Positions 10,847-52,120 of a stretch of DNA of 64,000 nucleotides are shown piece by piece. The notes beneath the pieces were generated by a model, which was not told where the DNA came from, did no database searches, and saw nothing but the letters and a program-made list of their open reading frames with translations. The stretch covers positions 1 through 64,000 of the IMG/VR virus record IMGVR_UViG_3300010883_000009; one strand, given 5' to 3'. Both the position numbers and the translations under genes were made by a program. Position 1 is the stretch's first letter. Each line of letters starts with the position of its first letter. The DNA is from a virus.

Positions 10847-11944
10847 CTAAATTTGTACCCCGACTGATTTTAAGTCTTCTTTTGCCTTCTCTACATAGGC
10901 TCCCTGATCAATTGCGTCTAAGGTGCTTTTTAAGCCGTCTTCACCAACATCTTGTTCAAGATACTCAACCATATCTCCTGTTTGATGAGCCACATTGAAC
11001 CCCATACTTATCATCGCAGTTAAATTCCCGAGATCTTTTGATGACGCCGCTTTTAAACGAGTATGTATATCTTCCACCGTCTCTCTCGTTTCATCAATTC
11101 CTTGCGCAGACCAATGATCATACCAAGATGGGAAAACCAAATGTTGATAGAATTCTGTTAAAATTCCATCTAAGCTACCCCAATTCTGCAATGACTGAAC
11201 AAACGATTCAACATCTCCGCCAAACAGAACATCAGGTTCAAGATCTACATTCTCAACCGTATAGTAATCTTCAATCCATGCTTCTGCCTCTTCTATCGTT
11301 TCGAATTCTTGATCGTGACTCAAGTTGAAATCTTCCAAATTATATTGAGCCGAATCAATTTCTGAATTCTTATAGTCAGGTAAAAACGCATTCTCGACAT
11401 ACCTTATTAAAGATGGGTAACTCTCTTTGTCATTGAGAGCAGTACTCAATATTTCGTACATGTGAGTAGAATAATCGGGAGAGCTACCAAATCCGCTGTT
11501 GAGCCGCTGCCTGTCGTTATGAACATATTTGTCATACTCCCACAACAAATTGTTAACCATCGATTCAGAATCGCCTTCGCCGTTGACTTCCTGATAGTCC
11601 CGCTCTCCTTGCACTCGCTTAGATGCCCAAGTGTTAGGAGTTAGAATGGCATGGCTATCCAACCATTTCTCCAAAGTTTCCAACAGTTTCTTCTGAAGTT
11701 CTTCAGCAATTTCAATCAAACTTTGTTCTAACTGGCGTTGAATATTCTCTTGTCGTTTAGGATGACCTTGAAAAGGAAGTTCGCGCATCATGGAGAACTT
11801 GAATTCCATTTCATGAAACTCTTTGATTTTGCTAGCGAAGTTTCGTTCATCGTCCCATTCGTTCACATCTTCTTCATCAGGACGATACTCCCATATCTGG
11901 GCAACCTTTCGAAGATCTATGGCTATACGATACCAACTTCTCAT
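10847..11944 (-). CDS. Leader-bearing acidic protein (MRSWYRIA)
   Basis: 365 aa, ATGA overlap with upstream gene. Confidence 0.6.
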   Translation of the reverse strand: MRSWYRIAIDLRKVAQIWEYRPDEEDVNEWDDERNFASKIKEFHEMEFKFSMMRELPFQGHPKRQENIQRQLEQSLIEIAEELQKKLLETLEKWLDSHAILTPNTWASKRVQGERDYQEVNGEGDSESMVNNLLWEYDKYVHNDRQRLNSGFGSSPDYSTHMYEILSTALNDKESYPSLIRYVENAFLPDYKNSEIDSAQYNLEDFNLSHDQEFETIEEAEAWIEDYYTVENVDLEPDVLFGGDVESFVQSLQNWGSLDGILTEFYQHLVFPSWYDHWSAQGIDETRETVEDIHTRLKAASSKDLGNLTAMISMGFNVAHQTGDMVEYLEQDVGEDGLKSTLDAIDQGAYVEKAKEDLKSVGVQI

Positions 11945-12465
11945 GCTATGTGCGCCTCGGGTAACTCGCTTTCTAAAACTTTATCAACTGTCAACGGACC
12001 TTCAGCATCGTATTTGTCAACCATATTCTGAATCTCTTCCAACGGAACATCATGTCGATTACGTTCAGCTAACTGTTCTGCGGTCTGACCGCCAGTCCCA
12101 ACTTCTACAAACTCTACTTCATAGCCTTGATTAACAGCCTTTTGGACAGCCGCTTTTGCTTCCCAAGCTTGAAGATTCATATTATCCAAAACCAGAGGGG
12201 TTCTGCCTTCTTCCATAGCTTGACCAATCAACGCGATCAACTGTTGGTGCTTTTCAGAAAGCGGGGACCAATCCTGAGCCTCTTCCATCGCTTCAAAGAA
12301 AGCGTTATAGCCATCAAGGTTGTCGGAAATAAGATCATCTGTCGCAAAGATGTTTTCTGGCACAACTCCTGACAACGACTTGGCGGCAGTACTCTTGCCA
12401 GAGCCACTTATGCCTCGCATAACGTAGAGCTTTTTACCTTTTGATTTGTCGTACCAACTGTCCAT
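11941..12465 (-). CDS. P-loop kinase (AAA_33/polynucleotide kinase-like)
   Basis: Walker A GISGSGKS, LVLDNMN, RNRHDVP lid; TAATG coupling gives start MDSWYDKS at 12465. Confidence 0.75.
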   Translation of the reverse strand: MDSWYDKSKGKKLYVMRGISGSGKSTAAKSLSGVVPENIFATDDLISDNLDGYNAFFEAMEEAQDWSPLSEKHQQLIALIGQAMEEGRTPLVLDNMNLQAWEAKAAVQKAVNQGYEVEFVEVGTGGQTAEQLAERNRHDVPLEEIQNMVDKYDAEGPLTVDKVLESELPEAHIA

Positions 12466-12971
12466 TATACTGTCCATTTATACATGATTTTTGGTTCCGC
12501 CCAATTCTCTGTAGTAACCGTATATCTATCACCTAAAGCGCTTATATCACCTATAATAACTTCAGGAACAGGATCTTCCAACTCGTCATTAAACTGATCT
12601 GCCGTAATGTCAATGATCATGTTGTTCAACTGAACCCAATAATGAAGCGGAGTATATGTTGCAGCTTCCATGGCTTGTTCCGCATATTGCATCTCTTCTT
12701 CTTCAGTCTCCATTGGTTCGGCAGGCAAAAAATCCTTTGCATCCATTTCGCTCCAAGCATCTATATCAGGAGTATCAACTGTAAACGTTCCCTGTGTAAC
12801 AGATGCAGCGTTATATCCGTTGTTAATGAGGATTTGAGCCAGATGCCTTGAAACAGGAAGACAAAGAGCTTTTAAACTATCATCGTCATCACGCAAGAGA
12901 GAATTTCTAACCTGAGTCGCTATCTGTTCTACTGACGGAGGCTCTTGCGCTATCTTATACCAACTTTTCAT
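12465..12971 (-). CDS. Leader-bearing papain/transglutaminase-like protein
   Basis: Start MKSWYKIAQ with GGAGG RBS; Cys (ALCLPVS), His (HYWV), Asp (IIDITADQF) triad. Confidence 0.6.
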   Translation of the reverse strand: MKSWYKIAQEPPSVEQIATQVRNSLLRDDDDSLKALCLPVSRHLAQILINNGYNAASVTQGTFTVDTPDIDAWSEMDAKDFLPAEPMETEEEEMQYAEQAMEAATYTPLHYWVQLNNMIIDITADQFNDELEDPVPEVIIGDISALGDRYTVTTENWAEPKIMYKWTV

Positions 12972-13104: not shown

Positions 13105-13162
13105 TAAACTTGCTTTAATGTGTCTGAAAATTAGCATAATTAACCCTGTCATATATCAGTAT

Positions 13163-13251: not shown

Positions 13252-13440
13252 TTACTTGGATGTAACTAAATCGGTTAAATCCCCATCAACTTTAACATTG
13301 GATGGAACAAGTATGGTTTCGTATGACATATAGTTATCTTCCTTAGATGCCAACGAAATTATCCACCCTCCGCCTTTGCATTTGGTTACTTTAAGTGTAT
13401 TTGTTGGAGTTTTATCTTTAGCTATACGTATTATTTTCAT
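13252..13440 (-). CDS. Leader-bearing small protein (MKIIRIA)
   Basis: 62 aa with leader motif. Confidence 0.55.
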   Translation of the reverse strand: MKIIRIAKDKTPTNTLKVTKCKGGGWIISLASKEDNYMSYETILVPSNVKVDGDLTDLVTSK

Positions 13441-13507: not shown

Positions 13508-13645
13508 TCAAACTGATGTCGCTACCATACCGGACTCATTTCGTTCAGGATCAAAGAATTGAAAGCCTTCTTCAATCTTAAATCCATTCTTCAACCGATC
13601 TTGAAGTATAGAGGCATTATCATTTGCTATTTTGAAAATTTTCAT
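13508..13645 (-). CDS. Leader-bearing micro-ORF (MKIFKIA, 45 aa), possibly truncated
   Basis: Manual translation; TGATG overlap with upstream gene. Confidence 0.5.
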   Translation of the reverse strand: MKIFKIANDNASILQDRLKNGFKIEEGFQFFDPERNESGMVATSV

Positions 13646-13941
13646 CAATCTCTCTTCAAAAAAATGAACTCAAAACCCTTTGTCATAAGGAAATAACACT
13701 CTTTATTGCCCCACATTGACTTTGCGAAATAAGAATCCGGATCGTCTGCAATAAATTCTTCCAATGATTCATCTTCAAGCAAAACAGCATGATCACACAT
13801 CATCTGGAATTCTTCCATAGGAACCTTTTGATGTTGAGCAATCATATTCTGCCAATTATCTTCTCCCACTTTATCACAACGCATTCTGTCGCATTGACCG
13901 AAGTATTGGAAAGGTTGAAATGCTAGTCGATAAATTCTCAT
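13645..13941 (-). CDS. Leader-bearing hypothetical protein (MRIYRLA)
   Basis: ATGA overlap fixes the start at 13941. Confidence 0.6.
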   Translation of the reverse strand: MRIYRLAFQPFQYFGQCDRMRCDKVGEDNWQNMIAQHQKVPMEEFQMMCDHAVLLEDESLEEFIADDPDSYFAKSMWGNKECYFLMTKGFEFIFLKRD

Positions 13942-14327
13942 TGCTGAGGTCTCCAATACATAGTCGCAGAAAGTGGGTCTGAAATGGTAAAGTCCGTATT
14001 CCTGCCCCTGTTTGGAACAAAGCCATGCCCTTTGTAAAAGTCGTTTAGTTTCTTTTTGTAGCCTACTTCAGGCTCTGGACTTAAAGAGATGGGCTTTCCT
14101 CTTCTTTGAGCGAACTCTTGTATCGCCCTTATGATTTCACTACCGATACCTTTTCGCCTCATGTCTACAGGCAGACGCAATTCTGATAACTGAATCTTAC
14201 TTTCAGTTTCGTATGCCCAAAGATCTAATTCAGGATATTGATTCATAAAAGAATCAATAATAGACTGCAACTCGGCGTTAGCTTCGTCAAGTTCGTCAGA
14301 TTGCTGCGCTATTCTATAGATCTTCAT
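13938..14327 (-). CDS. Leader-bearing GNAT acetyltransferase
   Basis: Motif A MRRKGIGS and FYKGHGF; start MKIYRIAQ. Confidence 0.7.
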   Translation of the reverse strand: MKIYRIAQQSDELDEANAELQSIIDSFMNQYPELDLWAYETESKIQLSELRLPVDMRRKGIGSEIIRAIQEFAQRRGKPISLSPEPEVGYKKKLNDFYKGHGFVPNRGRNTDFTISDPLSATMYWRPQQ

Positions 14328-14658
14328 TATTTTGGACCTCAATCAATATGCCCTTATCAATGACGTATATAGAATTAGGTTGCCCACTACCCTCATCTAC
14401 CCAAAAAGAACTAAATCCATTCTCTTGAGCTTCGAAAATACCTTTATCAAAACTAGCTTCATCATAAGCTTTTGGCAATTCAAACGCAGTATATATAGCT
14501 TCAGATGGAATTAAAAACGACTGTATTTCAAAATCTCTACCCGATTGAGTGAATTGTCTTGCCCATTCTCTATCGGTAGTAAAATAATTACCACCTTTAT
14601 TGTAAGAACCCTCGCCTCGATATACCGTTATGTTTTGCGCTATCCTAAAAATCTTCAT
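14314..14658 (-). CDS. Leader-bearing ADP-ribosyltransferase-fold protein
   Basis: VYRGE...YFTTDREWARQF; start MKIFRIAQ. Confidence 0.5.
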   Translation of the reverse strand: MKIFRIAQNITVYRGEGSYNKGGNYFTTDREWARQFTQSGRDFEIQSFLIPSEAIYTAFELPKAYDEASFDKGIFEAQENGFSSFWVDEGSGQPNSIYVIDKGILIEVQNNEDL

Positions 14659-15023
14659 TGATAGCTTCCATCCTCTTGTCTCTTCATGACCTTTCTTATC
14701 GCTATCCTTGAAGAATCGAATATAACCCAATTGTGATCTAGATTTATACTGTCAAATCCATTATCTTCAATCTGTTGTAAGAATAACTTTTCATACTCTT
14801 CCCATCCCGCTATATTCTTCACACGCAAATCGACGCTAAGGATATATTTACTGGAATTTGCGCCCGAAGTTCCGCCAATGATTTCATTAATGTCATCTGA
14901 AAACCAAAACACGCCTTGCGCAGAAAAATTCCTATCAAATGTTTCAAAGGGTTTATTCGTCCCATGATAAGCTTGAATGGTCTGTTCTGCCGATTCTTCT
15001 TGAGCTATCCTATAGATCTTCAT
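14655..15023 (-). CDS. Leader-bearing ADP-ribosyltransferase-fold protein (polyvalent-protein type)
   Basis: AYHGTNKPFETFD...GVFWFSDD...GFDSI...WVIFD; start MKIYRIAQ. Confidence 0.6.
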   Translation of the reverse strand: MKIYRIAQEESAEQTIQAYHGTNKPFETFDRNFSAQGVFWFSDDINEIIGGTSGANSSKYILSVDLRVKNIAGWEEYEKLFLQQIEDNGFDSINLDHNWVIFDSSRIAIRKVMKRQEDGSYQ

Positions 15024-15513
15024 AATCCTCAATATATTCTGAAATATCGTCAAAATTACTCGATAATTCACTAATGGAAACATCTCCTTGATTAAAATGT
15101 ATATCGGGACGTTTGTTCCAAGAAAATCCTCCACCAGTCTCATATAAAGAGTGATGAATGTCAACTTCATAAATCCCTTCTCGAACTTGAACAATGCAAT
15201 ACACATGTTGTTCAAAAGAAGACGATTGAGTAAAACATGCTATTCCGTTATCATTCAAAATAGATGCGATTTGATCTGCTATGAAATGACAAATGCCGCC
15301 GCCTGCATAAGTATCTATTTTTGCTTCATCCCATTCATCATATTCTTTTTGTGCTGCTTTAACAATATGTGGGATTAAAACGCCTACATCGTTAATACTC
15401 TTTAACTCATTAAATTTAGAACGATATTTTTGTATTCTTTCATTTTGGCTTTCGTCCTCCGCATCATACCACCATGGATCTTCAACCTCTTGCGCTAGTC
15501 GATAAATTCTCAT
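15010..15513 (-). CDS. Leader-bearing papain-like fold protein
   Basis: GGICHFIA / QHVYC / YEVDI Cys-His-Asp order; start MRIYRLAQ. Confidence 0.5.
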   Translation of the reverse strand: MRIYRLAQEVEDPWWYDAEDESQNERIQKYRSKFNELKSINDVGVLIPHIVKAAQKEYDEWDEAKIDTYAGGGICHFIADQIASILNDNGIACFTQSSSFEQHVYCIVQVREGIYEVDIHHSLYETGGGFSWNKRPDIHFNQGDVSISELSSNFDDISEYIEDYEDL

Positions 15514-15917
15514 GCAGGCGGTTCCCATTTTTTACTTCTATGGAATTCTGAAATATATTGAGGGGGAATTACTCCATGATATTCTAAAGTTTTCCCATTA
15601 GAATTATTTGAATCTTGTTTTAAAAGCTCTGGATCTATTCCTTCAGTATCAATTTGTAAAATAACTATTTCATCTAACCATTTCTCTTCAACAACATCTG
15701 ACGATTCAGCATATGATTCAGCCACCCATGGATCAAAAGCCAGATATACATTTTCTTGACTCATATCCCAGTTTTTAGTTTTATTGCCTTTAAGTCCATT
15801 TGTCATTATAGACTCTAAATGAAGCAAATATGTGGCATGATATAAATACTTCTCCGAAATATATTCTGGTTCAGGAATTTCTACCAACGAACTTTGTGAT
15901 ATCTTATAAATCTTCAT
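15510..15917 (-). CDS. Leader-bearing ART-fold protein (Tpt1/KptA-like)
   Basis: LYHAT...SIMTNGL...VYLA...ILQID...IPPQYI. Confidence 0.6.
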   Translation of the reverse strand: MKIYKISQSSLVEIPEPEYISEKYLYHATYLLHLESIMTNGLKGNKTKNWDMSQENVYLAFDPWVAESYAESSDVVEEKWLDEIVILQIDTEGIDPELLKQDSNNSNGKTLEYHGVIPPQYISEFHRSKKWEPPA

Positions 15918-16501
15918 ATCTGATATTCCTTAAATACCTTTTGAAAAGACTTATTGAATATCAATATCTCTTGCGTAGGGGTCTCTCCAATGAAAATATC
16001 ATTGGGGTTATTTGTACCTACAAATACAACAACATCAAACTTAGAAAACTTTTGTGTTGCGATTTTAGAAACCCATTCAGAATATTCTAATCCCAAATCA
16101 GGATAATACAATCCTACCGCCGCGAGCGCCTCAATAATTGATTCATAAGGGCTATAAGATGCTTTTTTTATCTGTTCATTGAAAACCATTTTGAATTCCA
16201 TGTCCGTTGCCCAATAATCTATCTTAACCTTCTTCAAAGCCCTTTTTAGAATATCACCTATTGCCGACTCAGCTTTAGAAGGATTAATCTTCTTGATTAC
16301 CGCATCATCTGGAACTTGAACTTCATAAACGTTTTCGCCAAACATATTCGCAAATTCGGGCTTATTGGTAACATACATCGCTTCTCCCAAAGGATTGTAG
16401 TGCTGTTCTTCCTTTGCCGCCTGAGAAGGATCATATTCGTCAAATTCAGGGCTGTCTGTACCATGATAATACGTTGGAGTAGCTTTCCTATAAATTTTCA
16501 T
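15914..16501 (-). CDS. Leader-bearing ADP-ribosyltransferase-fold protein
   Basis: YYHGT...FDEYD...LGEAMYVTNKPEFA...VYEV...QEILIF. Confidence 0.6.
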   Translation of the reverse strand: MKIYRKATPTYYHGTDSPEFDEYDPSQAAKEEQHYNPLGEAMYVTNKPEFANMFGENVYEVQVPDDAVIKKINPSKAESAIGDILKRALKKVKIDYWATDMEFKMVFNEQIKKASYSPYESIIEALAAVGLYYPDLGLEYSEWVSKIATQKFSKFDVVVFVGTNNPNDIFIGETPTQEILIFNKSFQKVFKEYQI

Positions 16502-19242: not shown

Positions 19243-19533
19243 TTAAACCAATCTTTTATCAAACCATCGCTTTTTCCCAAACCTTGCTTCTAAAGCTTCT
19301 TGGAGTCGATGGTTATCCCCTTGCTTTGCGGCTTGAATGCCTTCGTAAATATCAGGAAAAGTAGAATCGGAAGAATCGTATCTCCATAAATCACTATTTG
19401 TAATATCATACTGGAAAAGCAAATTCATTGCTTCCTGATCCAAACCAGAACCGTATTCTTGCTCAGATGGAAGACGACGATCTAGTAATCCTGATTCTTT
19501 CCATACATCGTTTGCTTTTCTAATAATCTTCAT
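19243..19533 (-). CDS. Leader-bearing hypothetical protein (MKIIRKA)
   Basis: ATGA overlap at 19530-19533. Confidence 0.55.
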   Translation of the reverse strand: MKIIRKANDVWKESGLLDRRLPSEQEYGSGLDQEAMNLLFQYDITNSDLWRYDSSDSTFPDIYEGIQAAKQGDNHRLQEALEARFGKKRWFDKRLV

Positions 19534-19904: not shown

Positions 19905-20258
19905 TTAACAACTCGTACAGGCTTTCTTCTCTTTCTTACGATCTAAATTGTCTTCTTTTATGTGTTTTACGCAGCGCTCATATTTCTCTGGGTCTTCGTC
20001 CTTATCTACTGTCGTATGACAAACAGCCCAAGGGTTATAAGGAGTCTCATCAGCAGAACGTTTCTTCTTGCCCTTCTTAGCTTCTATATCTACTGAAGCC
20101 TTCTTCTTTTTCTTTGGCTTGTTGCGCTTTTCTCGGGTCTTCTTTACAATGTCTCTATCCGCAAGAGTACCTTCGCATTCAGGATACATCTGCGTATCAA
20201 GATGACCTTTAGGTTTCTGATATGTTCCGCAATTTGATTGAAGTCTGTAAATTTTCAT
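19905..20258 (-). CDS. Leader-bearing basic Cys-containing protein
   Basis: MKIYRLQS; Lys-rich; NPWAVC...YERCV. Confidence 0.55.
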   Translation of the reverse strand: MKIYRLQSNCGTYQKPKGHLDTQMYPECEGTLADRDIVKKTREKRNKPKKKKKASVDIEAKKGKKKRSADETPYNPWAVCHTTVDKDEDPEKYERCVKHIKEDNLDRKKEKKACTSC

Positions 20259-36771: not shown

Positions 36772-36857
36772 TATTTCTCTCCTGTAAATTCAAAATCAAT
36801 TGCCATGATCATGTCTTTATTTCTGACTAACTGGTTCGTTTTACGGTAAATTCTCAT
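36771..36857 (-). CDS. Leader-bearing 28-aa micro-ORF (MRIYRKT)
   Basis: Manual translation; 6 nt after promoter motif at 36864-36892; TAATG coupling to the next gene. Confidence 0.45.
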   Translation of the reverse strand: MRIYRKTNQLVRNKDMIMAIDFEFTGEK

Positions 36858-37960: not shown

Positions 37961-38827
37961 TTAGCTGCCAGCCGTAACCGTTACCTTCGCCGTAGCGTAG
38001 GAGTTGATTACTACGATACCGACTTCCTCGTAGATAACCCATCCGAGACGAAGCTTCTTTGGATCGTCCGCTGGGAGAACGGTGATATCCTGACGAATCG
38101 GGAATGCACCAACGTACTCTGCGGGAGCGAGCAAGAAGACTGTATCAGTAGGGCACTTCGAAGAAACATGGATGTCAGCCGTGAACAAGTGTCCGAAGAG
38201 ACCTGTAGTCAAGACTTCCTTCTGTGTCGCTTCATCGTAAACGGTCTTACCGAAGTTACGGATGTCTGCGTAACGCAAAGCGTGGCAAACGATCTTTCCT
38301 ACAGTAAGGTCGTGCTGTTCGATAGTTGCGAATGCTTGGTTCAATGCGTTAAGCGTCAAAGCACCACCAGTCGAAACGACGGTATGTGCAGCGTCAACTG
38401 CGGCATTGATAGCGTTGAAGATGTTTAAGTCCTCTTCCTTCTGGATCGCTTCCTTCGCCTTGATCTGTGCTCTGTCTACAATGTAGAAACGACGAGCCTT
38501 GACTTCGGAAAGTCTGATCGTGGGGTTAGTTGCAATTTCGAACGTAGGTACGAGGATTTCCTCACCTTCTGTGATCATGTCAGGTACAGCGCCACGACGT
38601 GAAATGACGTGTGCGGTAGCTCTAACATCCTTCTCATAACGGGCATACGCGCCCTGAGGAAGTTCATCAACCATAAGCAATTTTCGGCCTACGGCTTGGT
38701 ATTCCAGCGCTCGACGGATAGGCTCCACCATTGCCTGTGCTAACGCAACTCGACCTTGGGGGGTATCCAACGCTTGAGCGATGAGACTTTCTCTCTCAGC
38801 ATTTACTGCTCTTTTGTCAATAGCCAT
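37961..38827 (-). CDS. Major capsid protein (HK97 fold)
   Basis: GRVALAQAMVEPIRRALEYQAVGRKLLMVDELPQG, VPTFEIATNP, GWVIYEEVG; strong RBS; order protease-decoration-capsid-terminator. Confidence 0.9.
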   Translation of the reverse strand: MAIDKRAVNAERESLIAQALDTPQGRVALAQAMVEPIRRALEYQAVGRKLLMVDELPQGAYARYEKDVRATAHVISRRGAVPDMITEGEEILVPTFEIATNPTIRLSEVKARRFYIVDRAQIKAKEAIQKEEDLNIFNAINAAVDAAHTVVSTGGALTLNALNQAFATIEQHDLTVGKIVCHALRYADIRNFGKTVYDEATQKEVLTTGLFGHLFTADIHVSSKCPTDTVFLLAPAEYVGAFPIRQDITVLPADDPKKLRLGWVIYEEVGIVVINSYATAKVTVTAGS

Positions 38828-39559: not shown

Positions 39560-39588
39560 CTATTCTATAACTTTAGGTGAAATCCCTT
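39560..39588 (-). promoter_or_regulatory. Putative late promoter for decoration/MCP (AAGG-N19-GAATAG)
   Basis: Recurrent motif downstream of a terminator. Confidence 0.55.
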
Positions 39589-39617
39589 TTTTTAATTAGT
39601 AATTTTTACGGATACAG

Positions 39618-42600: not shown

Positions 42601-45258
42601 TCCAATCTCTTCCTTGTTGAGGATTTCCTGTTCTTGATCCTTAACGGAAGCGAGAAGATTCTCACGTTCTGAGTCTCTTTCTGCTCTCGAAGACTCAACA
42701 TCAACCTGAGGCTTCAACGCAGCGCGAAGTTCATCCTTACGGCTGACCTTAGCGGTTGTCTCTTCCTTGGCTGCTTCGAGCTTCTCTTCGACTAAAGAAG
42801 AAACGCTATCGATACCTTCCTGTCCTTCAGAAATGATATCTACGGCATCCATGAGAAGGTCAGGGTTGATTGTTTCGTCAGACGCATGAGCGCGAAGACT
42901 GTCTACGACAACCTCTGCAATCTCTTTAGTTCCAACGCTAGCAACCCTAAGATTCTTATTCTGCCAATAGGCAACTCTCTTTGCGTAATCGATATCTTCT
43001 CTTGATTTTGAATCTTCGAAAAGCGATACGCCCAAATTGTATCTACTTTCAAGCGAGTCAACCAAGGATGCTGCTACAGAACATGCTTCCTCGGGAGTAC
43101 AACCCGTCTTGATAGCGGACGAGGCCATAACATCAACTACCGTCTGCATATGCTCGGACGCGCTCTTGAACCTAGCTGCATCCCTTCCGGCGGCTCTCGC
43201 CCAAGGTGCTGCTACGTTACGAAGTTGATCCTCGGTAATTGTATTTGGCTCGTTATCAACGCGCTTGCCCTCATCAGGCAATTGCTGTTGTGTAATAGAG
43301 TGCTGGTCGCCTTCGATCCTATTATCGCCTTCCATTTGTCCTTCTTGGACTTGATCCGGAGCGTCACCCTCTCTTGGGTGCTGCTTCAATTCAGGATCAT
43401 CCAATTGACCTTCGGTGATCTCATTCTTTTCGCCCGAGCGCTTCTCTTCGAGTTGCTCTTGGGTAATAGAATGTTTTTCATCCTTCTGTCTGGCGTGATA
43501 AAGATCGGAACGCTCAAGCTGACCCTCTTGAACCTGATCTGGAGTCGTTGCTCCAGCTTCTTTGCTGATATCAGTCATCTTTTTTACTCCTTCTTTTGTA
43601 GTATTGAGATTATTCGCAAATGTATCCAATAACTTAATTGCTGCGTCTTTAGGGGAATCGATAATTTCTCCACGTTCTTGTTCTGTCAGGTCTTCATACG
43701 TCCAAACCTTTTTCGCAGAAGAGTCTTTATCTTCCGCGACGATGATGAACGAGTCATCACGTTTATTGACAGACAAGCGATGATCATTGTTTTGTATTGA
43801 TGGTACTTTCTTTATATACTCGAAAAAGGATTGTTTTTCCTCCCACGAATTTGATAGAACTTCAATAGCCTTCTTTTTTTGTGCTTGCTTCTCAGCAATT
43901 GTTCGTCTTGCTCCCATCTCTGTTTCTCCTGTTTTGTTGATTCTTTCACAAATATTCGATGCATTTCTTACAATTGCTTTTCCGTCCGCTACGCGCTGTT
44001 CAAAGGGAACGTCCTTAATTGCGCAGCTTATATCTGAGACTCTCTGAATTGAACGACTGTCCTGAACATCCGATGTTCTCGGCTTAACAGGAGCAGTAAT
44101 AGGTAAATTTGGGGAAGATGTTGCTGGTGAAGCAGGAGATCCCGAAATACTACCCACTCCCGCCGTAGATTCCGCAGCAGGCATAGCCGATGGCATTCCT
44201 CCGGGCGCAGGCGGCATACCTTCAGGCATAGGTGGTTCTGCTCCAACTGGTCCAGCCCCGCCTTCTTCTAGATTTCCAACAGTTCCCGGTACTTCATCGC
44301 CCATGTTCCCGTATCCTGCTCCTACCAATTCTTCCATCCAAGTCTGAAGATCAGACATAATCTGCACCAAATCGCTAGAAAACTCCATTTCGACTTGTTG
44401 ACGATTTTGAATAAGGTTGATAGCAATTTGTTCCAATATCTCTAGACATTGTTCAATTTGATCAATTTCTTCTTGGCTGGCTTCCTTCTCAATAGCCGCA
44501 GTACGAACCATTCGAAGCTCGTTCTCTATGGACGCAACCTTAGCTAAGAAGTTTTCGTTAGGAATAATGCCCTCAATATGACAATTCGGGCAGGCAGGAT
44601 CAACTACAGCGCTCAACTCAATAAACTTGAGTCCGTAGTTGAATTCAAATACATCTTGATCCTTAAAAGACTTTTCTTCACCAGTTTTAACGTCTCTGGC
44701 TCGACCTGTAAATGTTCTTCCCTTGCGGTTACGAATATGCGTACAATAATCTTCGGTACGCTCAGCTTGGTTATTGCAAATATTACAAACGCTGTATTCA
44801 ACCGAACAACCCATGCTGACGCCGGTTACATACTCTTCCTCGATTGAACGACAAATATGCGGATATGCATCTCTATCAATAAAACAGATAGTGTAGATTG
44901 CCTGCTCTTCAGGGACAGCTTCAGCAAAAATAACCTTCCCGCGAGCATTCTCTACGTTCTGATTATCATGGTTGGTGAAAAAAGGAACGCCTTCAAAGCT
45001 CTTGTATGCGGAAAGAAGTTCGTCCCATGAAAAATAATCGCCGTTAGTATTAGGGCAATCGGCTTCAATAGCTTTAGCACGGAAGAACAAAGCATTGGGA
45101 TGCTTCTTTATCTCGGCTTCAACGATTTTCGCCTTATCAGAACCGGGTTCAACAATAACCCTACCTGATGCTGTACGCATCATTCGGTCACCGTCTTCAT
45201 TCGCACCCACTAATGGGTTAATGTCTGTAAAGTTAAAAGATGCTTCTTTTACTATCAT
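39664..45258 (-). CDS. Prohead maturation protease fused to a very long scaffold/core region
   Basis: NGDYF, FFTNH (His), GVSMGC (Ser), CNIC...CTH, FIELSAVVDPA; acidic repeat-rich remainder; position between portal and MCP. Confidence 0.8.
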   Translation of the reverse strand: MIVKEASFNFTDINPLVGANEDGDRMMRTASGRVIVEPGSDKAKIVEAEIKKHPNALFFRAKAIEADCPNTNGDYFSWDELLSAYKSFEGVPFFTNHDNQNVENARGKVIFAEAVPEEQAIYTICFIDRDAYPHICRSIEEEYVTGVSMGCSVEYSVCNICNNQAERTEDYCTHIRNRKGRTFTGRARDVKTGEEKSFKDQDVFEFNYGLKFIELSAVVDPACPNCHIEGIIPNENFLAKVASIENELRMVRTAAIEKEASQEEIDQIEQCLEILEQIAINLIQNRQQVEMEFSSDLVQIMSDLQTWMEELVGAGYGNMGDEVPGTVGNLEEGGAGPVGAEPPMPEGMPPAPGGMPSAMPAAESTAGVGSISGSPASPATSSPNLPITAPVKPRTSDVQDSRSIQRVSDISCAIKDVPFEQRVADGKAIVRNASNICERINKTGETEMGARRTIAEKQAQKKKAIEVLSNSWEEKQSFFEYIKKVPSIQNNDHRLSVNKRDDSFIIVAEDKDSSAKKVWTYEDLTEQERGEIIDSPKDAAIKLLDTFANNLNTTKEGVKKMTDISKEAGATTPDQVQEGQLERSDLYHARQKDEKHSITQEQLEEKRSGEKNEITEGQLDDPELKQHPREGDAPDQVQEGQMEGDNRIEGDQHSITQQQLPDEGKRVDNEPNTITEDQLRNVAAPWARAAGRDAARFKSASEHMQTVVDVMASSAIKTGCTPEEACSVAASLVDSLESRYNLGVSLFEDSKSREDIDYAKRVAYWQNKNLRVASVGTKEIAEVVVDSLRAHASDETINPDLLMDAVDIISEGQEGIDSVSSLVEEKLEAAKEETTAKVSRKDELRAALKPQVDVESSRAERDSERENLLASVKDQEQEILNKEEIGEADTVIETSFKELGVEPGQLGDNKPSVVAFTKGALASQNLRLGSITNVTISGDTIQIAVQTDTEENEVNIDTGEGTTEIPIGEGLEGLDAPAETVPEGDMAGEGLENSWASSKDKMTREAQSPMGGGMPGAGGAAPEQGLPGPAPMEGDPVQALTTEDTSAEDDIPTTGERQMPWTVCPECGSTDVDVTNEGGDIHGTCNACTAEYEALIKKEVEFKIIKPTKSVGEEGVDTPEAPEVPEVPALPVAAQTSLGKDAIVRIAKNQEEHGHVCPACGKDNCEASAEEDGHTEFSCTACGTPVEKDFMVSASNPEVGYLRVQWDLFPDVENCESCKEEALKFASEVRVAQMLKTAAANADEFPVSACMERLARRYGGDTVASFGPCKGKLLAECVCGQLQKLGFRKIRHLNKLASISMEKDPWDECIEDQTDSEGHTLKEAEAICNCIKKRFASEWMQNVYAQAFSDDAEEGREDGITAGDLATLDRILAEEKSAEVEAEHQKLAQADEEDIGTELPPADYIEVEAEVEDEIVVEAKGFFCDDCKNPKASCKCDKDDGDCCKKCECDPCECKGKGKDDDKKESASEKENIVASVEVQVEASEEEIDPEEEMRLALTMNSKRVRNTNEEVLKMASTPKQVKDIEGNVEAGVPRSDATIRNESADNIDVSMAQPDVPRANAELGNEGADNINPKAGLPETPVDSSYMGHEKEVQQGYDHANTGKGMPAINNEIKGTVIAEGDDEIKQASQEKQAKKLKEVDTVEGDVEAGVPRSDATIRNEGPDNIDVPAAKPDVPRANAEMGNEGADNINPKADGPDVPVSDAYMGHEKEVQQGYDHANTGKGMPGTNDEILKQVQQKRQVQLDRIAQARKNEAVQTAAWLVANQRVAKDKDTFDTVVQALMGFETDQIQVMANRMFPETTIKTAEAQSGQTVEAGYSIPAIVQESTPMVTAGVNDLQSQLENSFTIGNTKFDKDLTIYGEK
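40079..40500. repeat. Internal tandem duplication, period 357 bp (119 aa)
   Basis: 65-bp identical segments at 40079-40143 and 40436-40500 within a longer diverged repeat. Confidence 0.85.
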
Positions 45259-47418: not shown

Positions 47419-49698
47419 CTATGTGGTATTTGGGGCTGTCAGGCTTGGTTTAGCCTGAAGATCTTGGGCGTTCTGCTCAAGCCACATGCGTTTACGCATG
47501 ATTTCTTGGAGAACTGTGCGAACAATTTGTGGACCTGAACGTTCAATTTCGGTATCAGTAAAACGAAGAATTGTCCATCCTTGTTGCTGTAGTTTCATGT
47601 CCCTTGCGTTATCTCTATCGACTTGTTCTCGGGAACCATGAAAGACTTCTCCATCAGCTTCGATACCGATTTTAAGTTCAGGAATACCAAAGTCAAGAGA
47701 ATATTCTTGACCAGCAGCGTTAACTCTATATTGTGGATAAATAGTTTCTTTTAACAGACCGTCTTGCTGCGCCTGCATTAATTTAGGAATTAAATCTCTT
47801 TCAGCTTTAGTAAACGCTATACGCCCTTTCTCATCTCTAAAATACCCTTGCTCATCTTTTCCCATGACTCCCTGAGTTTCTTGTTCCCTGAATATCTTCT
47901 CTTGTTCCGACTGTATGCGTTCTCTCGTTCTCTTTTTTAGAACTTTTCCCCCAAACTGGGTGGGATCTGCTACCTCAGCCGTAATGCTTGTGCTTTTTGG
48001 CATTGGTCCTCCGACTCCCCCTCCTACGGGAGAAGGCATTCCTCCTCCTCCTACTGGAGTTCCGGGTCCACCCATCTCTCCGGGCGCTCCAATCGGTGGC
48101 TCTCCTCCTAATCCGCCGCCTCCGTCTAACGGCGGCATAGCTGAACCGCCTGCTCCGAATCCGCCGCCGCCTGCTCCTCCCGGAGCCGAAGGTCCAAATC
48201 CTTGTCCAATTGCCATGAACTGCAAGGCATCGTAACGCTTTCTCTCGATTTCCTGATCAGGATCAAGATCGAACGCCTCAAGTACCGTTTGAGCACTTAA
48301 GAGACCCTTATCGTAAAGCTGAATAATAAATGTTCTGTATTGCTGCTGATCGCGCAGATGCATCGAAGCCCATTTGATCTTGGGAATAATGTACTCATCT
48401 TCACCCGTATCAGGATTCTTGTCAACGAACCCTTGTCGTTTCGCTTCTGGAAGATAAATGTTTTTCTCGATCCATCTAGCGACTTCACTACGGAAAGTAT
48501 TGAGACGCTGAATCATTGCCTCGATACCGACAGCCGCCGAACTGAAGTTTGGTCCCTCTCCGTTCAACAGCGCATTGTTGATCATCATACCGTCGAGAAT
48601 TTCTTGATTAATGAACTCAAACTCATTAGAAAGAGTAAGAACTCTTCCTGCTGCGCCAACAAAGTCTAATTCGAAAGCATGGTGAGTAACAATAGTAAGG
48701 TTAGGATCGTTAGCTGTTTGAGATAACTGAGACTGTACGTCTGCAATATCAGCGGGACCAGCAGGACGCTCATCGCTACCGACCTTGACGATCTTGATTG
48801 GGACAATTAAACGCTCTGCAACTATCCACTGAGCAACCATCAGTTTCGTTTTGTAGGAAAGAATAGGAAACAAACGACGAACCATTCCTATACCAAACTT
48901 CTGATATCCACATTCTCCGTACTTTAAATGCGACACATTGCGATTGTCAAGGCGAATAGGTTGTCCTGTAGCGATAAGGGCAACAACTTCAGGAGACAAT
49001 TTCTCATAACCCGGAATCTTTCTTTGTACCATGTTAATCAACTCTTCGTCAGGACGAAGCGCAATCATTGGGTCAGGGTTAATGGAAGTCGTGTGAACCT
49101 CTACATAATCAGGATTTAGGAGAACAACACGGCGTACTGTCCCGCCCTCATGTTCGCATATCTCGTCTCCGACCTTACCTGCTCCGAAACAATGAGGACA
49201 ATCGATTTCAATAAAAGGGAAGCAATCTCCCAAAAGGTGAACTTCATGACTAATTAAACGACACCATTTAGGGAGTTCAATCTTGTCTTTAAGTTTATCG
49301 AAATGAATCTTAACGTCTCGATTACGACATTCATGCTCGAAGTCGCTCATGGGAAAATCGCTGTAGAAGTCAACAGCAGCAGCTACTTTGGGTTCGTTCT
49401 CGTAAAAGAAACGCGCCCACTGATACTGTTCTAGACGCTTAGAAGGTATCTGCCAGTTGATCGGGGTGTGAACTGGTGAGAAGAATTGAGGCTGACCATA
49501 TACGATACCGGCTGAGGTCGCAGCAGTACGCGACATTCCCGTTCCCCATCCGCCAGTTTCTACTGCGGTAGTTGGGGCATAGTTATGTTGGGGAATCCTT
49601 TTGTAGTCAGGATGGGGCGCTACAATTTTCTTCCCGACTTTAGCGGGATCTCGATTTTTAAGTGCTTGAAAAGCTTGTTGTAGTCCTGAATCTGCCAT
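47419..49698 (-). CDS. Portal protein with C-terminal DUF559 (Vsr-like) endonuclease domain
   Basis: WARFFYENEP, LLGDCFPF, LLNPDYVEV, AQWIVAERLIVPIKIVKVG portal motifs; Gly/Pro linker; PQYRV..YSLDF..IEADGEVFH..D..RD..L...GWTILRF. Confidence 0.8.
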   Translation of the reverse strand: MADSGLQQAFQALKNRDPAKVGKKIVAPHPDYKRIPQHNYAPTTAVETGGWGTGMSRTAATSAGIVYGQPQFFSPVHTPINWQIPSKRLEQYQWARFFYENEPKVAAAVDFYSDFPMSDFEHECRNRDVKIHFDKLKDKIELPKWCRLISHEVHLLGDCFPFIEIDCPHCFGAGKVGDEICEHEGGTVRRVVLLNPDYVEVHTTSINPDPMIALRPDEELINMVQRKIPGYEKLSPEVVALIATGQPIRLDNRNVSHLKYGECGYQKFGIGMVRRLFPILSYKTKLMVAQWIVAERLIVPIKIVKVGSDERPAGPADIADVQSQLSQTANDPNLTIVTHHAFELDFVGAAGRVLTLSNEFEFINQEILDGMMINNALLNGEGPNFSSAAVGIEAMIQRLNTFRSEVARWIEKNIYLPEAKRQGFVDKNPDTGEDEYIIPKIKWASMHLRDQQQYRTFIIQLYDKGLLSAQTVLEAFDLDPDQEIERKRYDALQFMAIGQGFGPSAPGGAGGGGFGAGGSAMPPLDGGGGLGGEPPIGAPGEMGGPGTPVGGGGMPSPVGGGVGGPMPKSTSITAEVADPTQFGGKVLKKRTRERIQSEQEKIFREQETQGVMGKDEQGYFRDEKGRIAFTKAERDLIPKLMQAQQDGLLKETIYPQYRVNAAGQEYSLDFGIPELKIGIEADGEVFHGSREQVDRDNARDMKLQQQGWTILRFTDTEIERSGPQIVRTVLQEIMRKRMWLEQNAQDLQAKPSLTAPNTT

Positions 49699-51114: not shown

Positions 51115-51124
51115 GTCTAGCTCC

Positions 51125-52120
51125 TTATTGTGCTACGCCCAAGTTTGATGCTAAAGAACTTGCGAAATCATCAGAAATCTGACGAGAACTTTGTTTACAA
51201 GGCTTCTCCCAATCGTCGTTCTCTTTCGGACGCTGGATAGAGGCTTTGTACTCTTTGTTATGTTTCGCAATCTTTTCGCCTTCAGTCAAATCGGGCAAAG
51301 TTTGTTTTCCGCTACCATAAACGCCGCCTTGAACGGGTTCGTGATTAAGACCCGTATGAGCATTAAGTGATTCGGTTGGGAATACCGTTCCTTTCGGAAT
51401 TATATCTCCTCCAGACATTTCATCAGCCTTATCTTGCTGCCATTCGGTATGATTCGCCTTCTTCTGCTCTTCTTTGTCTTTTGCTTGCTGCTTCAAGCGT
51501 TCGCCGTTATCAGGAGTTTCACTCTCTGCAAATTCTTTGATAGCGTCAGGATTCGTGATGCTGTTTTGGTTAGGAGCGGGGTTAACATCCGAATTTTCGA
51601 AATAATTCTCTCCGCCACCAATCGCAATGACATCACCTGTAAACAGGGATGGTTCGGACAAGTTGTCTTGTTTCTTAACCTGTTCCCAGTTAGCAGGCTC
51701 CATGTGAGACGTATCTGAACGCTCATCAATGCGGAAAGGATCTTTCCATACACCTCGTAAATTTTGCGTTTCCTCAGATGGAGCCGCTGCTTGCGCAGTT
51801 CTAACCATCGTATCGGATGCTGATTCTCTTTGAATATCGACAGGATTAAACCCCTTAAACTTGGACAAATCCATGCCGCAAGCAATGGCGTATTCTCTCA
51901 AATGACGAACAACACCATCATCCCAATTGGAATTATAATGGTAAGGCTTACCGTTAGAAGAACATGCTTCAATCCTATCGCACTCTTGAGCTAATACCAA
52001 TTCGTCCACTTCCTCAGAAACATTTATTTCCTCAACTTCTTCAGTTGGAATGGAAGGTTTTTGTTCTTCGGTCATGAACCAAGGAATGCTCTGTTCGTCT
52101 GCGACTCGTAATATGTTCAT
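51125..52120 (-). CDS. Leader-bearing acidic protein (MNILRVA)
   Basis: 331 aa; internal MVRTAQ. Confidence 0.55.
   Translation of the reverse strand: MNILRVADEQSIPWFMTEEQKPSIPTEEVEEINVSEEVDELVLAQECDRIEACSSNGKPYHYNSNWDDGVVRHLREYAIACGMDLSKFKGFNPVDIQRESASDTMVRTAQAAAPSEETQNLRGVWKDPFRIDERSDTSHMEPANWEQVKKQDNLSEPSLFTGDVIAIGGGENYFENSDVNPAPNQNSITNPDAIKEFAESETPDNGERLKQQAKDKEEQKKANHTEWQQDKADEMSGGDIIPKGTVFPTESLNAHTGLNHEPVQGGVYGSGKQTLPDLTEGEKIAKHNKEYKASIQRPKENDDWEKPCKQSSRQISDDFASSLASNLGVAQ

What the first reader, a model, noticed from the sequence alone, without database searches (positions are those of the whole stretch)
10847..52120. A shared 7-8 aa N-terminal leader on about 20 unrelated proteins: candidate capsid-targeting tag system
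Seen: once starts are corrected using gene overlaps and RBSs, minus-strand ORFs begin MKIIRIA (13440), MKIFKIA (13645), MRIYRLA (13941), MKIYRIAQ (14327), MKIFRIAQ (14658), MKIYRIAQ (15023), MRIYRLAQ (15513), MKIYKISQ (15917), MKIYRKA (16501), MKIIRKA (19533), MKIYRLQS (20258), MNIYRLS (33279), MRIYRLA (36220), MRIYRKT (36857), MKIYRLA (37623), MKIYRLAQ (37873), MNILRVA (52120). Variants are MRSWYRIA (11944), MKSWYKIAQ (12971) and MDSWYDKS (12465). Similarity stops right after the Ala, and proteins range from 28 to 1045 aa. Nine are consecutive (13252-16501). Known: T4 internal proteins share a 10-aa capsid targeting sequence removed by the prohead protease. Inference: this is an independent, larger version that loads cargo into the head for injection.
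Basis: partly seen in the sequence, partly recalled or inferred. Interest (0 to 1): 0.92.

Follow-up and report, generated by a model that had tools for sequence, protein, structure and literature searches.

The report
Shared head-loading tag on megaphage proteins
About 26 unrelated proteins in this fragment of an uncultivated giant phage start with the same eight amino acids, and the end of that tag matches a motif repeated through the phage's own capsid-maturation protease-scaffold protein, so it is most likely a removable label that loads enzymes into the phage head for injection; neither cutting nor loading has been shown.

Summary
All 20 listed starts carry M-[KRN]-I-[YFIL]-[RK]-x-[AS]-(Q) or M-x-S-W-Y-[KR]-x-A. 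The whole 93.9-kb record has 26 matches, against 0.13 in shuffles.

- **Peptide, not DNA.** Synonymous codons in the tag are as random as genome codon usage predicts, so selection acts on the peptide.
- **What the record is.** It is about 20% of a roughly 480-kb marine megaphage whose capsid protein is 56% identical to that of Bacillus phage G.
- **Spread.** Relatives carry interchangeable forms (MNWYKKAQ, MKIYRIAQ, MKIIKTA) on at least 97 unrelated protein families. These include ART-PolyVal, GNAT, AAA_33 kinase, Acb1/2H, CCA-adding enzyme and lysozyme/SLT. Orthologues of one cargo keep a tag but switch form.
- **Link to the head.** The tag's core, hydrophobic-[KR]-x-A-[QS], is about 7-fold enriched and positionally conserved in the 1864-aa protease-scaffold protein. 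It flanks that protein's assemblin/gp21-fold protease domain.
- **Expression.** Tagged genes share a promoter-like motif with the capsid and tail-tube operons.

Best reading (about 0.55): a T4-CTS-like capsid-targeting propeptide, clipped by the prohead protease. Cleavage, packaging and injection are inferred, not shown.

The scan found the MNWYKKAQ tag before on other DNA. I found nothing in print.

The parts
10847..11944 (-). Tagged gene, 365 aa, starts MRSWYRIA (W-Y form). No family match.
11941..12465 (-). Tagged AAA_33 P-loop kinase, 174 aa, with a degenerate tag MDSWYDKS. Its orthologue in L017 starts MNWYKKAQ.
12465..12971 (-). Tagged gene, 168 aa, starts MKSWYKIAQ. Its orthologue in L019 carries MKIIKVAR.
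13252..13440 (-). Tagged gene, 62 aa, starts MKIIRIAK.
13508..13645 (-). Tagged gene, 45 aa, starts MKIFKIAN.
13645..13941 (-). Tagged gene, 98 aa, starts MRIYRLAF.
13938..14327 (-). Tagged GNAT acetyltransferase, 129 aa, starts MKIYRIAQ. Its orthologue in L100 starts MNWYKKAK.
14314..14658 (-). Tagged gene, 114 aa, starts MKIFRIAQ.
14655..15023 (-). Tagged ART-PolyVal ADP-ribosyltransferase, 122 aa, starts MKIYRIAQ. The Pfam domain begins at residue 17. Its orthologue in L017 starts MNWYKKAK.
15010..15513 (-). Tagged gene, 167 aa, starts MRIYRLAQ.
15510..15917 (-). Tagged gene, 135 aa, starts MKIYKISQ.
15914..16501 (-). First gene of the tagged array, 195 aa, starts MKIYRKAT followed by YYHGTDS (ART-like). 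Of its 22 full-length orthologues in public data, 21 carry a tag of one form or another. A promoter-like motif ends 8 nt before the ATG.
19243..19533 (-). Tagged gene, 96 aa, starts MKIIRKAN.
19905..20258 (-). Tagged gene, 117 aa, starts MKIYRLQS. Its orthologues in relatives (L041, L049) start M[KR]ILKTA and lie just upstream of the protease-scaffold gene.
30142..33279 (-). Tagged gene, 1045 aa, starts MNIYRLSG. No family or fold lead.
33842..36220 (-). Tagged gene, 792 aa, starts MRIYRLAA. Only a weak PcfJ-like lead.
36771..36857 (-). Tagged 28-aa ORF, starts MRIYRKTN; doubtful as a gene. A promoter-like motif ends 6 nt before the ATG.
37456..37623 (-). Tagged gene, 55 aa, starts MKIYRLAI; second gene downstream of the capsid gene.
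37625..37873 (-). Tagged gene, 82 aa, starts MKIYRLAQ; directly downstream of the capsid gene. A promoter-like motif ends 9 nt before the ATG.
51125..52120 (-). Tagged gene, 331 aa, starts MNILRVAD (weaker match). A promoter-like motif lies 58 nt upstream.
39664..45258 (-). Protease-scaffold protein, 1864 aa. Residues about 31-246 form an assemblin/gp21-fold head maturation protease. The protein starts MIVKEAS and carries 11 copies of hydrophobic-[KR]-x-A-[SQAGT] (1.57 expected). Copies flank the protease domain (27-31, 251-262) and recur through the scaffold part at positions conserved in relatives.
37961..38827 (-). Major capsid protein (HK97 fold family), 56% identical to phage G gp27. It starts MAIDKRAV, a weak match to the M-x-hydrophobic-x-K-x-A format.
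47419..49698 (-). Portal protein with a C-terminal HNH-like domain. It marks the upstream end of the head module.
36223..36771 (-). Protein with the longer leader MKI-x-[KR]-TA...S-x-x-EW-x-x-IG-x-x-x-GW. In three other bearers (57239, 57592, 79833) the module runs into K-[TS]-A-Q; here TTAQ follows about 10 residues later.
56760..57592 (-). Two adjacent genes (159 and 113 aa) carrying the same long leader, which ends GWTKTAQ.
39561..39600 (-). Approximate position of a promoter-like AGG-N19-GAATAG upstream of the decoration-capsid operon. It is a variant of the AGG-N18/19-GAA[AG]TA motif found before tagged genes.

Best explanation
The eight-residue leader is M-(N/K)-(W/I)-Y-(K/R)-x-A-Q, here mostly MKIYRIAQ. 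I read it as a capsid-targeting propeptide.

Its second half, hydrophobic-[KR]-x-A-[Q/S], copies the motif that the phage's head-maturation protease appears to recognise. That protease has the assemblin/T4-gp21 fold and is fused to a long scaffold. The same motif flanks the protease domain and punctuates the scaffold.

Tagged proteins are made together with the structural proteins and are taken into the assembling prohead through the leader. The leader is then clipped at or next to the Ala. The mature enzymes stay in the head and enter the host with the DNA. They include ADP-ribosyltransferases, a GNAT, a kinase, large unknown proteins and, in relatives, Acb1-like phosphoesterases, CCA-adding enzymes and lysozymes.

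Shown here:
- the tag and its statistics, and that selection acts at peptide level;
- the diversity of the cargo and the swapping of tag forms between orthologues;
- the enrichment and positional conservation of the motif in the protease-scaffold;
- the protease fold;
- the promoter-like motif shared with structural operons.

Inferred: that the motif is a cleavage site, that the tag causes encapsidation, and that the cargo is injected.
For: - **Non-random and at ORF starts.** The record has 26 matches against 0.13 in shuffles, nearly all at ORF starts.
- **Selection on the peptide.** Codon identity between leaders is 0.366, against 0.362 expected from genome codon usage, and all six Arg codons are used.
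- **An add-on, not part of the fold.** Pfam domains start after the tag: AAA_33 at residue 13, ART-PolyVal at 17. Information content falls to background after Ala+1.
- **Portable.** 119 distinct tagged ORFs in the loci held here fall into 97 BLAST clusters.
- **Kept but interchangeable.** 21 of 22 full-length orthologues of cargo 15914-16501 carry a tag, which flips between MKIYRIAS, MNWYKKAQ and MNW[LF]QKIA forms.
- **Cargo of the polyvalent-protein, counter-defence kind.** It includes ART-PolyVal, GNAT, AAA_33, 2H/Acb1, PolyA_pol/CCA, HD and SLT.
- **Protease in the head module.** ORF 39664-45258 lies between portal and capsid gene and matches a head maturation protease (phrog_18299, E 2e-15). 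Its AF2 model (pLDDT 81) finds herpesvirus assemblins and T4 gp21 first.
- **The motif in that protein.** The strict motif occurs 11 times against 1.57 expected (z 7.9), and no other large protein is enriched.
- **Conserved positions.** In 12 relatives there are 19.1 sites per sequence, against 5.3-9.1 for control motifs. Thirteen positions are conserved, against 0-3 for controls, including both flanks of the protease domain.
- **The protease-scaffold's own start.** It begins M-x-hydrophobic-x-K-x-A in 55 of 68 relatives, and 50 of 61 share a second site near residue 28.
- **Shared promoter-like motif.** AGG-N18/19-GAA[AG]TA occurs 23 times against 4.5 expected. It precedes tagged genes, the tail-tube operon and, as a variant, the decoration-capsid operon.
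- **Position in relatives.** Tagged genes sit directly downstream of the capsid gene or directly upstream of the protease-scaffold gene.
- **Precedent.** The T4 CTS MKTYQEFIAE is removed by gp21 from IPI-III and Alt (PMC7411985). Phage G virions contain enzymes by mass spectrometry (PMC12484599).
Against: - There are no proteomic or biochemical data: cleavage, encapsidation and injection are all untested.
- The tagged proteins are strongly acidic (median pI 4.6), unlike the basic T4 internal proteins.
- The folded domain often begins only 1-6 residues after the tag, which leaves little room for a protease.
- The residue after the Ala is mostly Gln in cargo but Ser/Ala in the scaffold sites.
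- Phage G has the homologous protease with the same flanking sites but no tagged cargo. The motif alone therefore does not imply the cargo system.
- Some tagged proteins carry a hydrophobic segment (a lysozyme; L099, L114), or are helicases or sigma-like proteins that could as well act in the cytoplasm.
- In complete relatives the tagged clusters are not confined to the head module.
- The temporal class of the shared promoter-like motif is inferred only from the genes it precedes.
Confidence: 0.55

Rival explanations
1. A processing tag without packaging. The leader is a propeptide cut by the same protease, or simply a binding site for it, but in the cytoplasm. It would activate or time the enzymes as in viral polyprotein processing, and the proteins would never enter the head.
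For: The motif shared with the protease-scaffold shows only a link to the protease, not a location. The tag abuts the catalytic domain, so it could mask activity. The cargo is acidic. Some tagged proteins look cytoplasmic or membrane-bound.
Against: Prohead proteases of this fold are, as far as studied, active inside the prohead (PMC7411985). In the known precedents (T4, SPN3US) such N-terminal propeptides go with encapsidation. The protease-scaffold itself starts with the same format.
Confidence: 0.15
2. A docking tag for some other common partner. The leader binds a phage hub, chaperone, unfoldase or compartment (for example the Ycf46-like AAA+ ATPase or the actin-like Volactin) and has nothing to do with the capsid.
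For: The record encodes an AAA+ ATPase next to a tagged gene and an actin homologue. A short amphipathic N-terminal peptide could bind many things.
Against: No partner co-varies with the tag. This reading does not explain why the tag's core is the motif enriched 7-fold in the protease-scaffold, or why tagged genes nest in the head module of relatives.
Confidence: 0.12
3. An N-terminal degron. The Met-basic-hydrophobic-hydrophobic start resembles ClpX N-terminal recognition signals, and the phage ClpP, with a host or phage ClpX, would remove these proteins on schedule.
For: A genuine ClpP is encoded at 76248-76835 of the record (172 bits). The resemblance to ClpX N-motifs is from memory only.
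Against: Phage G has ClpP and ClpX but no leader. A degron does not explain the link to the protease-scaffold, nor the invariant Ala/Gln.
Confidence: 0.06
4. A translation feature. The leader exists because these codons or the nascent peptide favour initiation or early elongation, perhaps on leaderless mRNAs.
For: For at least seven tagged genes the -10-like element ends 6-9 nt before the ATG, which implies leaderless transcripts. Lys/Asn-Ile/Tyr starts are said to favour expression (from memory).
Against: Synonymous sites are fully randomised, so no RNA element is conserved. Conservation reaches positions 7-8. Most tagged genes are internal to operons. The presumably highly expressed structural proteins (tail tube, decoration, portal) lack the tag, and untagged genes share the leaderless layout.
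Confidence: 0.05
5. A DNA cassette joint. The leader DNA is a recombination site that shuffles gene cassettes, and the peptide is a by-product.
For: Tagged genes form tandem arrays with overlapping stop/start codons, and a few leader pairs share 18 of 21 nt.
Against: Codon identity between leaders equals the genome-wide expectation (0.366 against 0.362), and mean nucleotide identity is 59%. Orthologues keep a tag while changing its form.
Confidence: 0.02

Closest known systems
Capsid targeting sequence (CTS) of phage T4 internal proteins IPI-III and Alt, removed by prohead protease gp21
   Same: A short N-terminal peptide of about 8-10 residues sits on otherwise unrelated proteins that include an ADP-ribosyltransferase. 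It ends in the motif associated with the phage's own gp21-fold protease, and the cargo is of the anti-host-defence kind. There is even a superficial likeness: MKTYQEFIAE against MKIYR--IAQ (PMC3012670; PMC7411985).
   Different: There is no sequence homology. The apparent P1 residue is Ala after a basic residue, not Glu after Leu/Ile. There are dozens of cargo species per genome instead of four. Several tag forms are interchangeable. The cargo is acidic rather than basic. The protease is fused to a giant scaffold. Nothing has been shown experimentally.
N-terminal propeptides of ejection proteins in phiKZ-like giant phages (SPN3US gp47/gp53/gp54, cut by gp245 at A-X-E)
   Same: This is also a giant phage in which head-resident ejection proteins carry N-terminal propeptides ending in the protease motif. 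A targeting role has been proposed for those propeptides (PMC7411985).
   Different: Those propeptides are 110-130 residues long and specific to each protein. Here the tag is a portable 8-residue consensus, with a different motif.
Herpesvirus UL26 protease-scaffold (assemblin with release and maturation sites)
   Same: An N-terminal protease of the same fold is fused to a scaffold, with conserved sites flanking the protease domain (PMC4498786; fold match). From my own knowledge, assemblins cut after Ala (Ala|Ser), the same P1 residue proposed here.
   Different: The herpesvirus system has no tagged enzyme cargo. The phage protein is far longer and has about 12-19 sites.
Polyvalent proteins of phages and conjugative elements
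   Same: The enzyme repertoire is the same (ART-PolyVal, kinase, GNAT, peptidases, ParB-like), and it is proposed to be delivered with the DNA.
   Different: Here each domain is a separate small gene with its own tag, instead of one giant multidomain protein.
Encapsulin cargo-loading peptides
   Same: A short conserved peptide on diverse enzymes directs them inside an HK97-fold shell (own knowledge).
   Different: Those peptides are usually C-terminal, are not removed, and belong to no virus. No sequence likeness was tested or seen.

Membership tests
T4-type capsid targeting sequence system | One short N-terminal peptide shared by otherwise unrelated proteins of one phage | tested here: met
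   26 matches in the record against 0.13 by chance; no two tagged proteins of the record fall in one BLAST cluster.
T4-type capsid targeting sequence system | The tag ends in the motif that recurs in the phage's own scaffold and protease proteins | tested here: met
   Hydrophobic-[KR]-x-A-[SQAGT] occurs 11 times against 1.57 expected in the protease-scaffold; 13 positions are conserved in relatives against 0-3 for control motifs.
T4-type capsid targeting sequence system | That motif is the actual cleavage site, and the tag is removed in the prohead | not testable with these tools
   Needs N-terminal proteomics or an in vitro protease assay.
T4-type capsid targeting sequence system | A prohead protease of the gp21/assemblin fold is encoded in the head module | tested here: met
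   phrog_18299, E 2e-15. The AF2 model (pLDDT 81) finds herpes assemblins and T4 gp21 (5jbl) as top hits with probability about 1.0, though E is about 3e-3 and TM 0.35-0.57. The Pfam families S77 and S78 themselves do not match.
T4-type capsid targeting sequence system | Tagged proteins are present in virions and ejected into the host | not testable with these tools
   The phage is uncultivated and no proteome exists.
T4-type capsid targeting sequence system | Sequence kinship with the T4 CTS (MKTYQEFIAE) and cutting after Glu in L/I-x-E | tested here: not met
   The consensus is M-[NK]-[WI]-Y-[KR]-x-A-Q, with no Glu. It works like the T4 system but is not a member by descent.
Polyvalent-protein effector repertoire | Domains such as ART-PolyVal, kinase, GNAT and peptidase joined in one giant protein | tested here: not met
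   The domain types are present but each is a separate gene of 45-365 aa.
Herpesvirus-like protease-scaffold fusion | An N-terminal assemblin-fold protease followed by a scaffold, with self-processing sites at the domain boundaries | tested here: inconclusive
   The fold is met, as is the placement of the conserved motif at residues 27-31 and 251-262, in disordered segments of the model. Cleavage itself is untested.
ClpX N-terminal degron | The tag co-occurs with ClpXP and causes degradation | tested here: not met
   Phage G has ClpX and ClpP but no tag. Degradation itself is not testable here.

The most novel reading that the evidence does not exclude
A clade of uncultivated marine megaphages uses a simple, readable eight-residue address label, tied to an Ala-specific assemblin-type protease, to load dozens of separately encoded counter-defence enzymes into the capsid. 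There are at least 26 in one fifth of this genome. If so, the set of proteins a phage injects could be read directly from sequence, and the label could be reused to pack foreign proteins. The same N-terminal format on the protease-scaffold, and weakly on the capsid protein, would make it a general head-assembly code.
Probability: 0.45. Interest if true: 0.82.

Novelty: new variant of a known kind. Interest (0 to 1): 0.72.

Why it matters
Which proteins a phage injects with its DNA is known for only a handful of model phages, and only through proteomics. If this tag is a head-loading label, three things follow.

- **A sequence-only predictor.** Injected proteins could be predicted across a whole clade of giant phages that nobody can grow.
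- **A different way to deliver effectors.** These phages would deliver many small, fast-changing counter-defence enzymes as separate tagged genes rather than as one polyvalent protein.
- **A handle on the protease.** It would point to a prohead protease that cuts after Ala, like the herpesvirus enzymes of the same fold.

It would also offer a compact tag for packing foreign proteins into capsids. Even if the packaging reading fails, an eight-residue peptide kept on about 100 unrelated families, with interchangeable forms, still needs an explanation.

Tried and rejected
- **DNA or RNA-level element, or cassette joint.** Rejected: synonymous sites are random.
- **Paralogy.** Rejected: the tagged proteins share no BLAST similarity beyond the tag, and the Pfam domains differ.
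- **GNAT first strand as a coincidence.** Considered for one protein only; it cannot explain the others.
- **Phage G as a model.** Its genome has no leader. The multi-omics paper on it says nothing about N-terminal processing.
- **Pfam prohead protease families S77 and S78.** No hits in this record or in four complete relatives. The PHROG profile and the fold search were needed instead.
- **PDB sequence search of the giant protein.** Nothing found.
- **ESM Atlas on the 1045- and 792-aa cargo.** Nothing firm.
- **Literature string searches for the tag sequences.** No relevant paper.
- **The K/R-x-A/S motif in the giant protein.** I first thought it was at chance level. A narrower form ([KR].AQ) gave only 5 sites. 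The broader form with shuffles and control motifs showed it is real.
- **A full-length MAFFT alignment of 60 giant proteins.** It timed out and was replaced by partial and close-relative alignments.
- **A passage stating Ala|Ser specificity of assemblins.** Not found in the paper read, so that point rests on my own knowledge.

Full report
**Observation**

Reading the DNA shows that the shared peptide is encoded by freely varying codons. Arg appears as CGT, CGA, CGG, CGC, AGA and AGG, and the Ile, Tyr, Ala and Leu codons vary too.

The window is the first 64 kb of a 93,875-bp virus record. Over the whole record the tag patterns match 26 times. One hundred codon-block shuffles gave a mean of 0.13 and a maximum of 2.

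Between pairs of leaders, the fraction of identical codons at positions with the same amino acid is 0.366. Genome-wide codon usage predicts 0.362. The conservation therefore lies in the peptide, not in the DNA or RNA. This sets aside the idea that the leader DNA is a recombination joint or an RNA signal.

Further tagged genes lie outside the window at 78302+, 79061+, 80155-, 80211+ and 83244+.

**What the DNA is**

- The capsid protein (37961-38827, minus strand) is 56% identical to gp27 of Bacillus phage G.
- IMG/VR holds many relatives with 62-98% capsid identity, some on contigs of 460-548 kb.
- CheckV rates this record about 20% complete, so it is a fragment of a megaphage.
- One orthologue of a cargo protein comes from Tara Oceans data, which points to a marine origin.
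- The head module runs portal (47419-49698), two unknown genes, a 1864-aa ORF (39664-45258), a decoration-like protein, and the capsid protein.

**The tag is clade-wide and comes in interchangeable forms**

- A relative with 92% capsid identity (L017) has a tandem array of genes that all start MNWYKKAQ or close variants.
- An exact-pattern scan of IMG/VR for MNWYKKA found 28 stretches, where I estimate roughly three by chance, many of them on contigs of this clade.
- Four of the five near-complete relatives scanned hold 6-12 exact or relaxed MNWY starts each, in clusters; the fifth, G013, has one.
- Phage G itself has none.
- In the loci held here, 119 distinct tagged ORFs fall into 97 BLAST clusters.
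- Three forms recur: MNWYKKAQ, MKI[YF][KR]IAQ (the main form in this window), and MKI[IL][KR]TA. There are also stretched versions such as MNWYKRQLKIAM.
- Information content falls to background one residue after the Ala, where Gln is enriched.

Orthologous cargo carries different forms in different phages. The ART, the GNAT, the kinase and the 117-aa protein all show this. For the 195-aa ART-like cargo at 15914-16501, 21 of 22 full-length orthologues in the large protein collection carry a tag. The tag flips between the MKIYRIAS, MNWYKKAQ and MNW[LF]QKIA types, and the YHGTDS domain begins 1-6 residues later. The tag is therefore under strong selection, portable, and separate from the fold. 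Pfam domains begin after it.

**What the cargo is**

- In this window: an AAA_33 kinase, a GNAT and an ART-PolyVal. Several proteins have no match, including ones of 1045 and 792 aa.
- In relatives: PolyA_pol/CCA-adding enzymes, AAA_33, ART-PolyVal, 2H phosphoesterase/Acb1, HD, a UvrD helicase, SLT, and others.

This is the repertoire seen in polyvalent proteins and in counter-defence. It fits proteins that are useful at the very start of infection.

**Link to head maturation**

The N-terminal part of the 1864-aa ORF matches a head maturation protease PHROG (E 2e-15). The Pfam families S77 and S78 do not match it.

An AlphaFold2 model of residues 1-270, built on 59 relatives, has mean pLDDT 81. 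Its core is confident at 31-246, and residues 1-30 and 247-255 are disordered. Foldseek places herpesvirus assemblins and T4 gp21 at the top, with probability about 1.0 but modest E-values and TM-scores.

An earlier first-stage note on this genome proposed many K/R-x-A/S sites in this protein, and I tested that.

- The strict motif [ILMVFYW][KR].A[SQAGT] occurs 11 times against 1.57 expected from 300 shuffles of the same protein (z 7.9). No other large protein of the record is enriched.
- Across 12 close relatives (31-76% identical), [KR].A[SQTA] occurs 19.1 times per sequence. The reversed motif gives 6.1, and two control motifs give 5.3 and 9.1.
- Thirteen alignment positions keep the motif in at least 7 of 12 sequences, against 0-3 for the controls.
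- Conserved sites flank the protease domain (MMRTAS at 27, MVRTAA/IEKEAS at 251-262) and recur through the scaffold part (FKSAS, NLRVAS, LKFAS, KRFAS, LKMAS).
- The protein's own N-terminus reads M-x-hydrophobic-x-K-x-A in 55 of 68 relatives. The site near residue 28 sits in the same column in 50 of 61.

The second half of the cargo tag (Y-[KR]-x-A-Q) is this same motif.

Phage G's homologous stand-alone protease, gp19, also has VKIAG, VKTAA and LKIAS flanking its domain. The motif is therefore older than the cargo system.

**Expression**

A promoter-like motif, AGG-N18/19-GAA[AG]TA, occurs 23 times against 4.5 expected. It precedes:

- tagged genes 16501, 36857, 37873, 52120, 78302, 80155, 80211 and 83244;
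- the tail-tube operon (4697), and genes at 6938 and 21011;
- the decoration-capsid operon, as the variant AGG-N19-GAATAG.

For many of these genes the -10-like element ends only 6-9 nt before the ATG, which implies leaderless transcripts. Untagged genes share this layout. Relatives keep it for orthologous genes.

Sharing the motif with structural operons suggests that tagged genes are expressed together with head genes. No timing data exist.

**Explanation and its limits**

The best fit is a capsid-targeting propeptide of the T4 CTS kind.

- In T4, MKTYQEFIAE directs IPI-III and Alt to the scaffolding core and is removed by gp21 (PMC3012670; PMC7411985).
- Here the tag is different in sequence. 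The apparent P1 residue is Ala, as in herpesvirus assemblins (my own knowledge).
- The protease is fused to its scaffold as in herpesvirus UL26 (PMC4498786).
- The number of cargo species is far larger.

What is shown is the tag, its selection, its portability, its match to a conserved and enriched motif in the protease-scaffold, the protease fold, and the shared promoter-like motif. What is inferred is cleavage, encapsidation and injection.

Points against:

- The cargo is acidic (median pI 4.6).
- The domains start very close to the tag.
- The residue after Ala differs between cargo (Gln) and scaffold (Ser/Ala).
- Phage G has the protease motif without tagged cargo.
- Some tagged proteins have hydrophobic segments or look cytoplasmic.
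- Tagged clusters in complete genomes are not all near head genes.

Rivals are given with odds in the report sections: processing without packaging, docking to another partner, a ClpXP degron, a translation effect, and a DNA joint. The last is largely refuted.

**Novelty**

Searches of the paper library for the tag strings found nothing relevant. Earlier notes of this scan describe the MNWYKKAQ tag on other DNA and reach the same reading. Those notes are not independent evidence.

Their claim that the tag matches protease sites, and the notes on this genome about K/R-x-A/S sites and the promoter motif, were re-tested here and hold.

I class this as a new variant of a known kind: it works like a CTS but is not related to the T4 CTS by descent.

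Noticed in passing
window 36223-36771, 56760-57239, 57251-57592, 19530-19874; record 79369-79833: Five proteins share a second, longer N-terminal module of about 30 aa: MKI-x-[KR]-TA-x-GK...S-x-x-EW-x-x-IG-x-x-x-GW. In three of them (57239, 57592, 79833) it runs straight into K-[TS]-A-Q, the same core as the short tag. A relative has it on a 585-aa protein. It may be a folded docking module placed ahead of the same site.
   Followed up: partly
window 16509, 36864, 37883, 27348, 61930; record 78293, 80162, 80203, 83236: The -10-like element GAA[AG]TA of the promoter-like motif ends only 1-9 nt before the ATG, with no Shine-Dalgarno sequence. Many transcripts of this phage are therefore probably leaderless. 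The layout is kept for orthologous genes in L017 and L104.
   Followed up: partly
window 7016-8194 (-): A 392-aa protein matches the Pfam family Volactin (archaeal actin homologue) at E 1e-61. An actin-like protein in a megaphage is unusual.
   Followed up: no
window 52461-55523 (-): A 1020-aa AAA+ ATPase is interrupted by an intein with a homing endonuclease (Hom_end_hint, Hom_end, LAGLIDADG_3). It lies next to tagged gene 51125-52120.
   Followed up: no
window 47419-49698 (-): The portal protein carries a C-terminal HNH-endonuclease-like domain (residues about 663-734). Near residue 57 it has MSRTAAT, which resembles the protease-scaffold site MMRTAS.
   Followed up: no
window 16631-17710 (+); L017 11003-11992 (+): A plus-strand ORF with a LAGLIDADG-like motif (seen by eye: MLGDGHI) sits next to the minus-strand tagged array. 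L017 has a similar free-standing ORF just after its capsid gene. Both are probably homing endonucleases.
   Followed up: no
window 27356-29491 (+) and 59487-61928 (-): Two proteins carry a PolyA_pol/tRNA nucleotidyltransferase domain, both untagged here. In some relatives (L082, L083, L105) the CCA-adding enzyme carries the MNWYK tag.
   Followed up: partly
record 74968-75669 (+), outside the window: A phage lysozyme starts MHYNWYKEAN, followed by a hydrophobic segment. Tagged proteins with a similar segment recur in relatives (L099, L114). This could be an ejected wall-degrading protein or a signal-anchored endolysin.
   Followed up: no
window 55630-56415 (-) and 59096-59476 (-): Two further head-region proteins have the motif close to their N-terminus (EEMVRTAS at residue 23; TIIKEAQ at residue 11). 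They may have longer propeptides.
   Followed up: no
record 76248-76835 (+), outside the window: A genuine ClpP (172 bits) is encoded away from the head module. Phage G also encodes ClpP and ClpX, and both are reported in its virions (PMC12484599).
   Followed up: partly
window 37961-38827 (-): The capsid protein starts MAIDKRAV, the same M-x-hydrophobic-x-K-x-A format as the protease-scaffold. In L050 the protease-scaffold starts MAIDKKAN. The match is weak (about the 97th percentile of other ORF starts), and phage G's capsid protein lacks it.
   Followed up: partly
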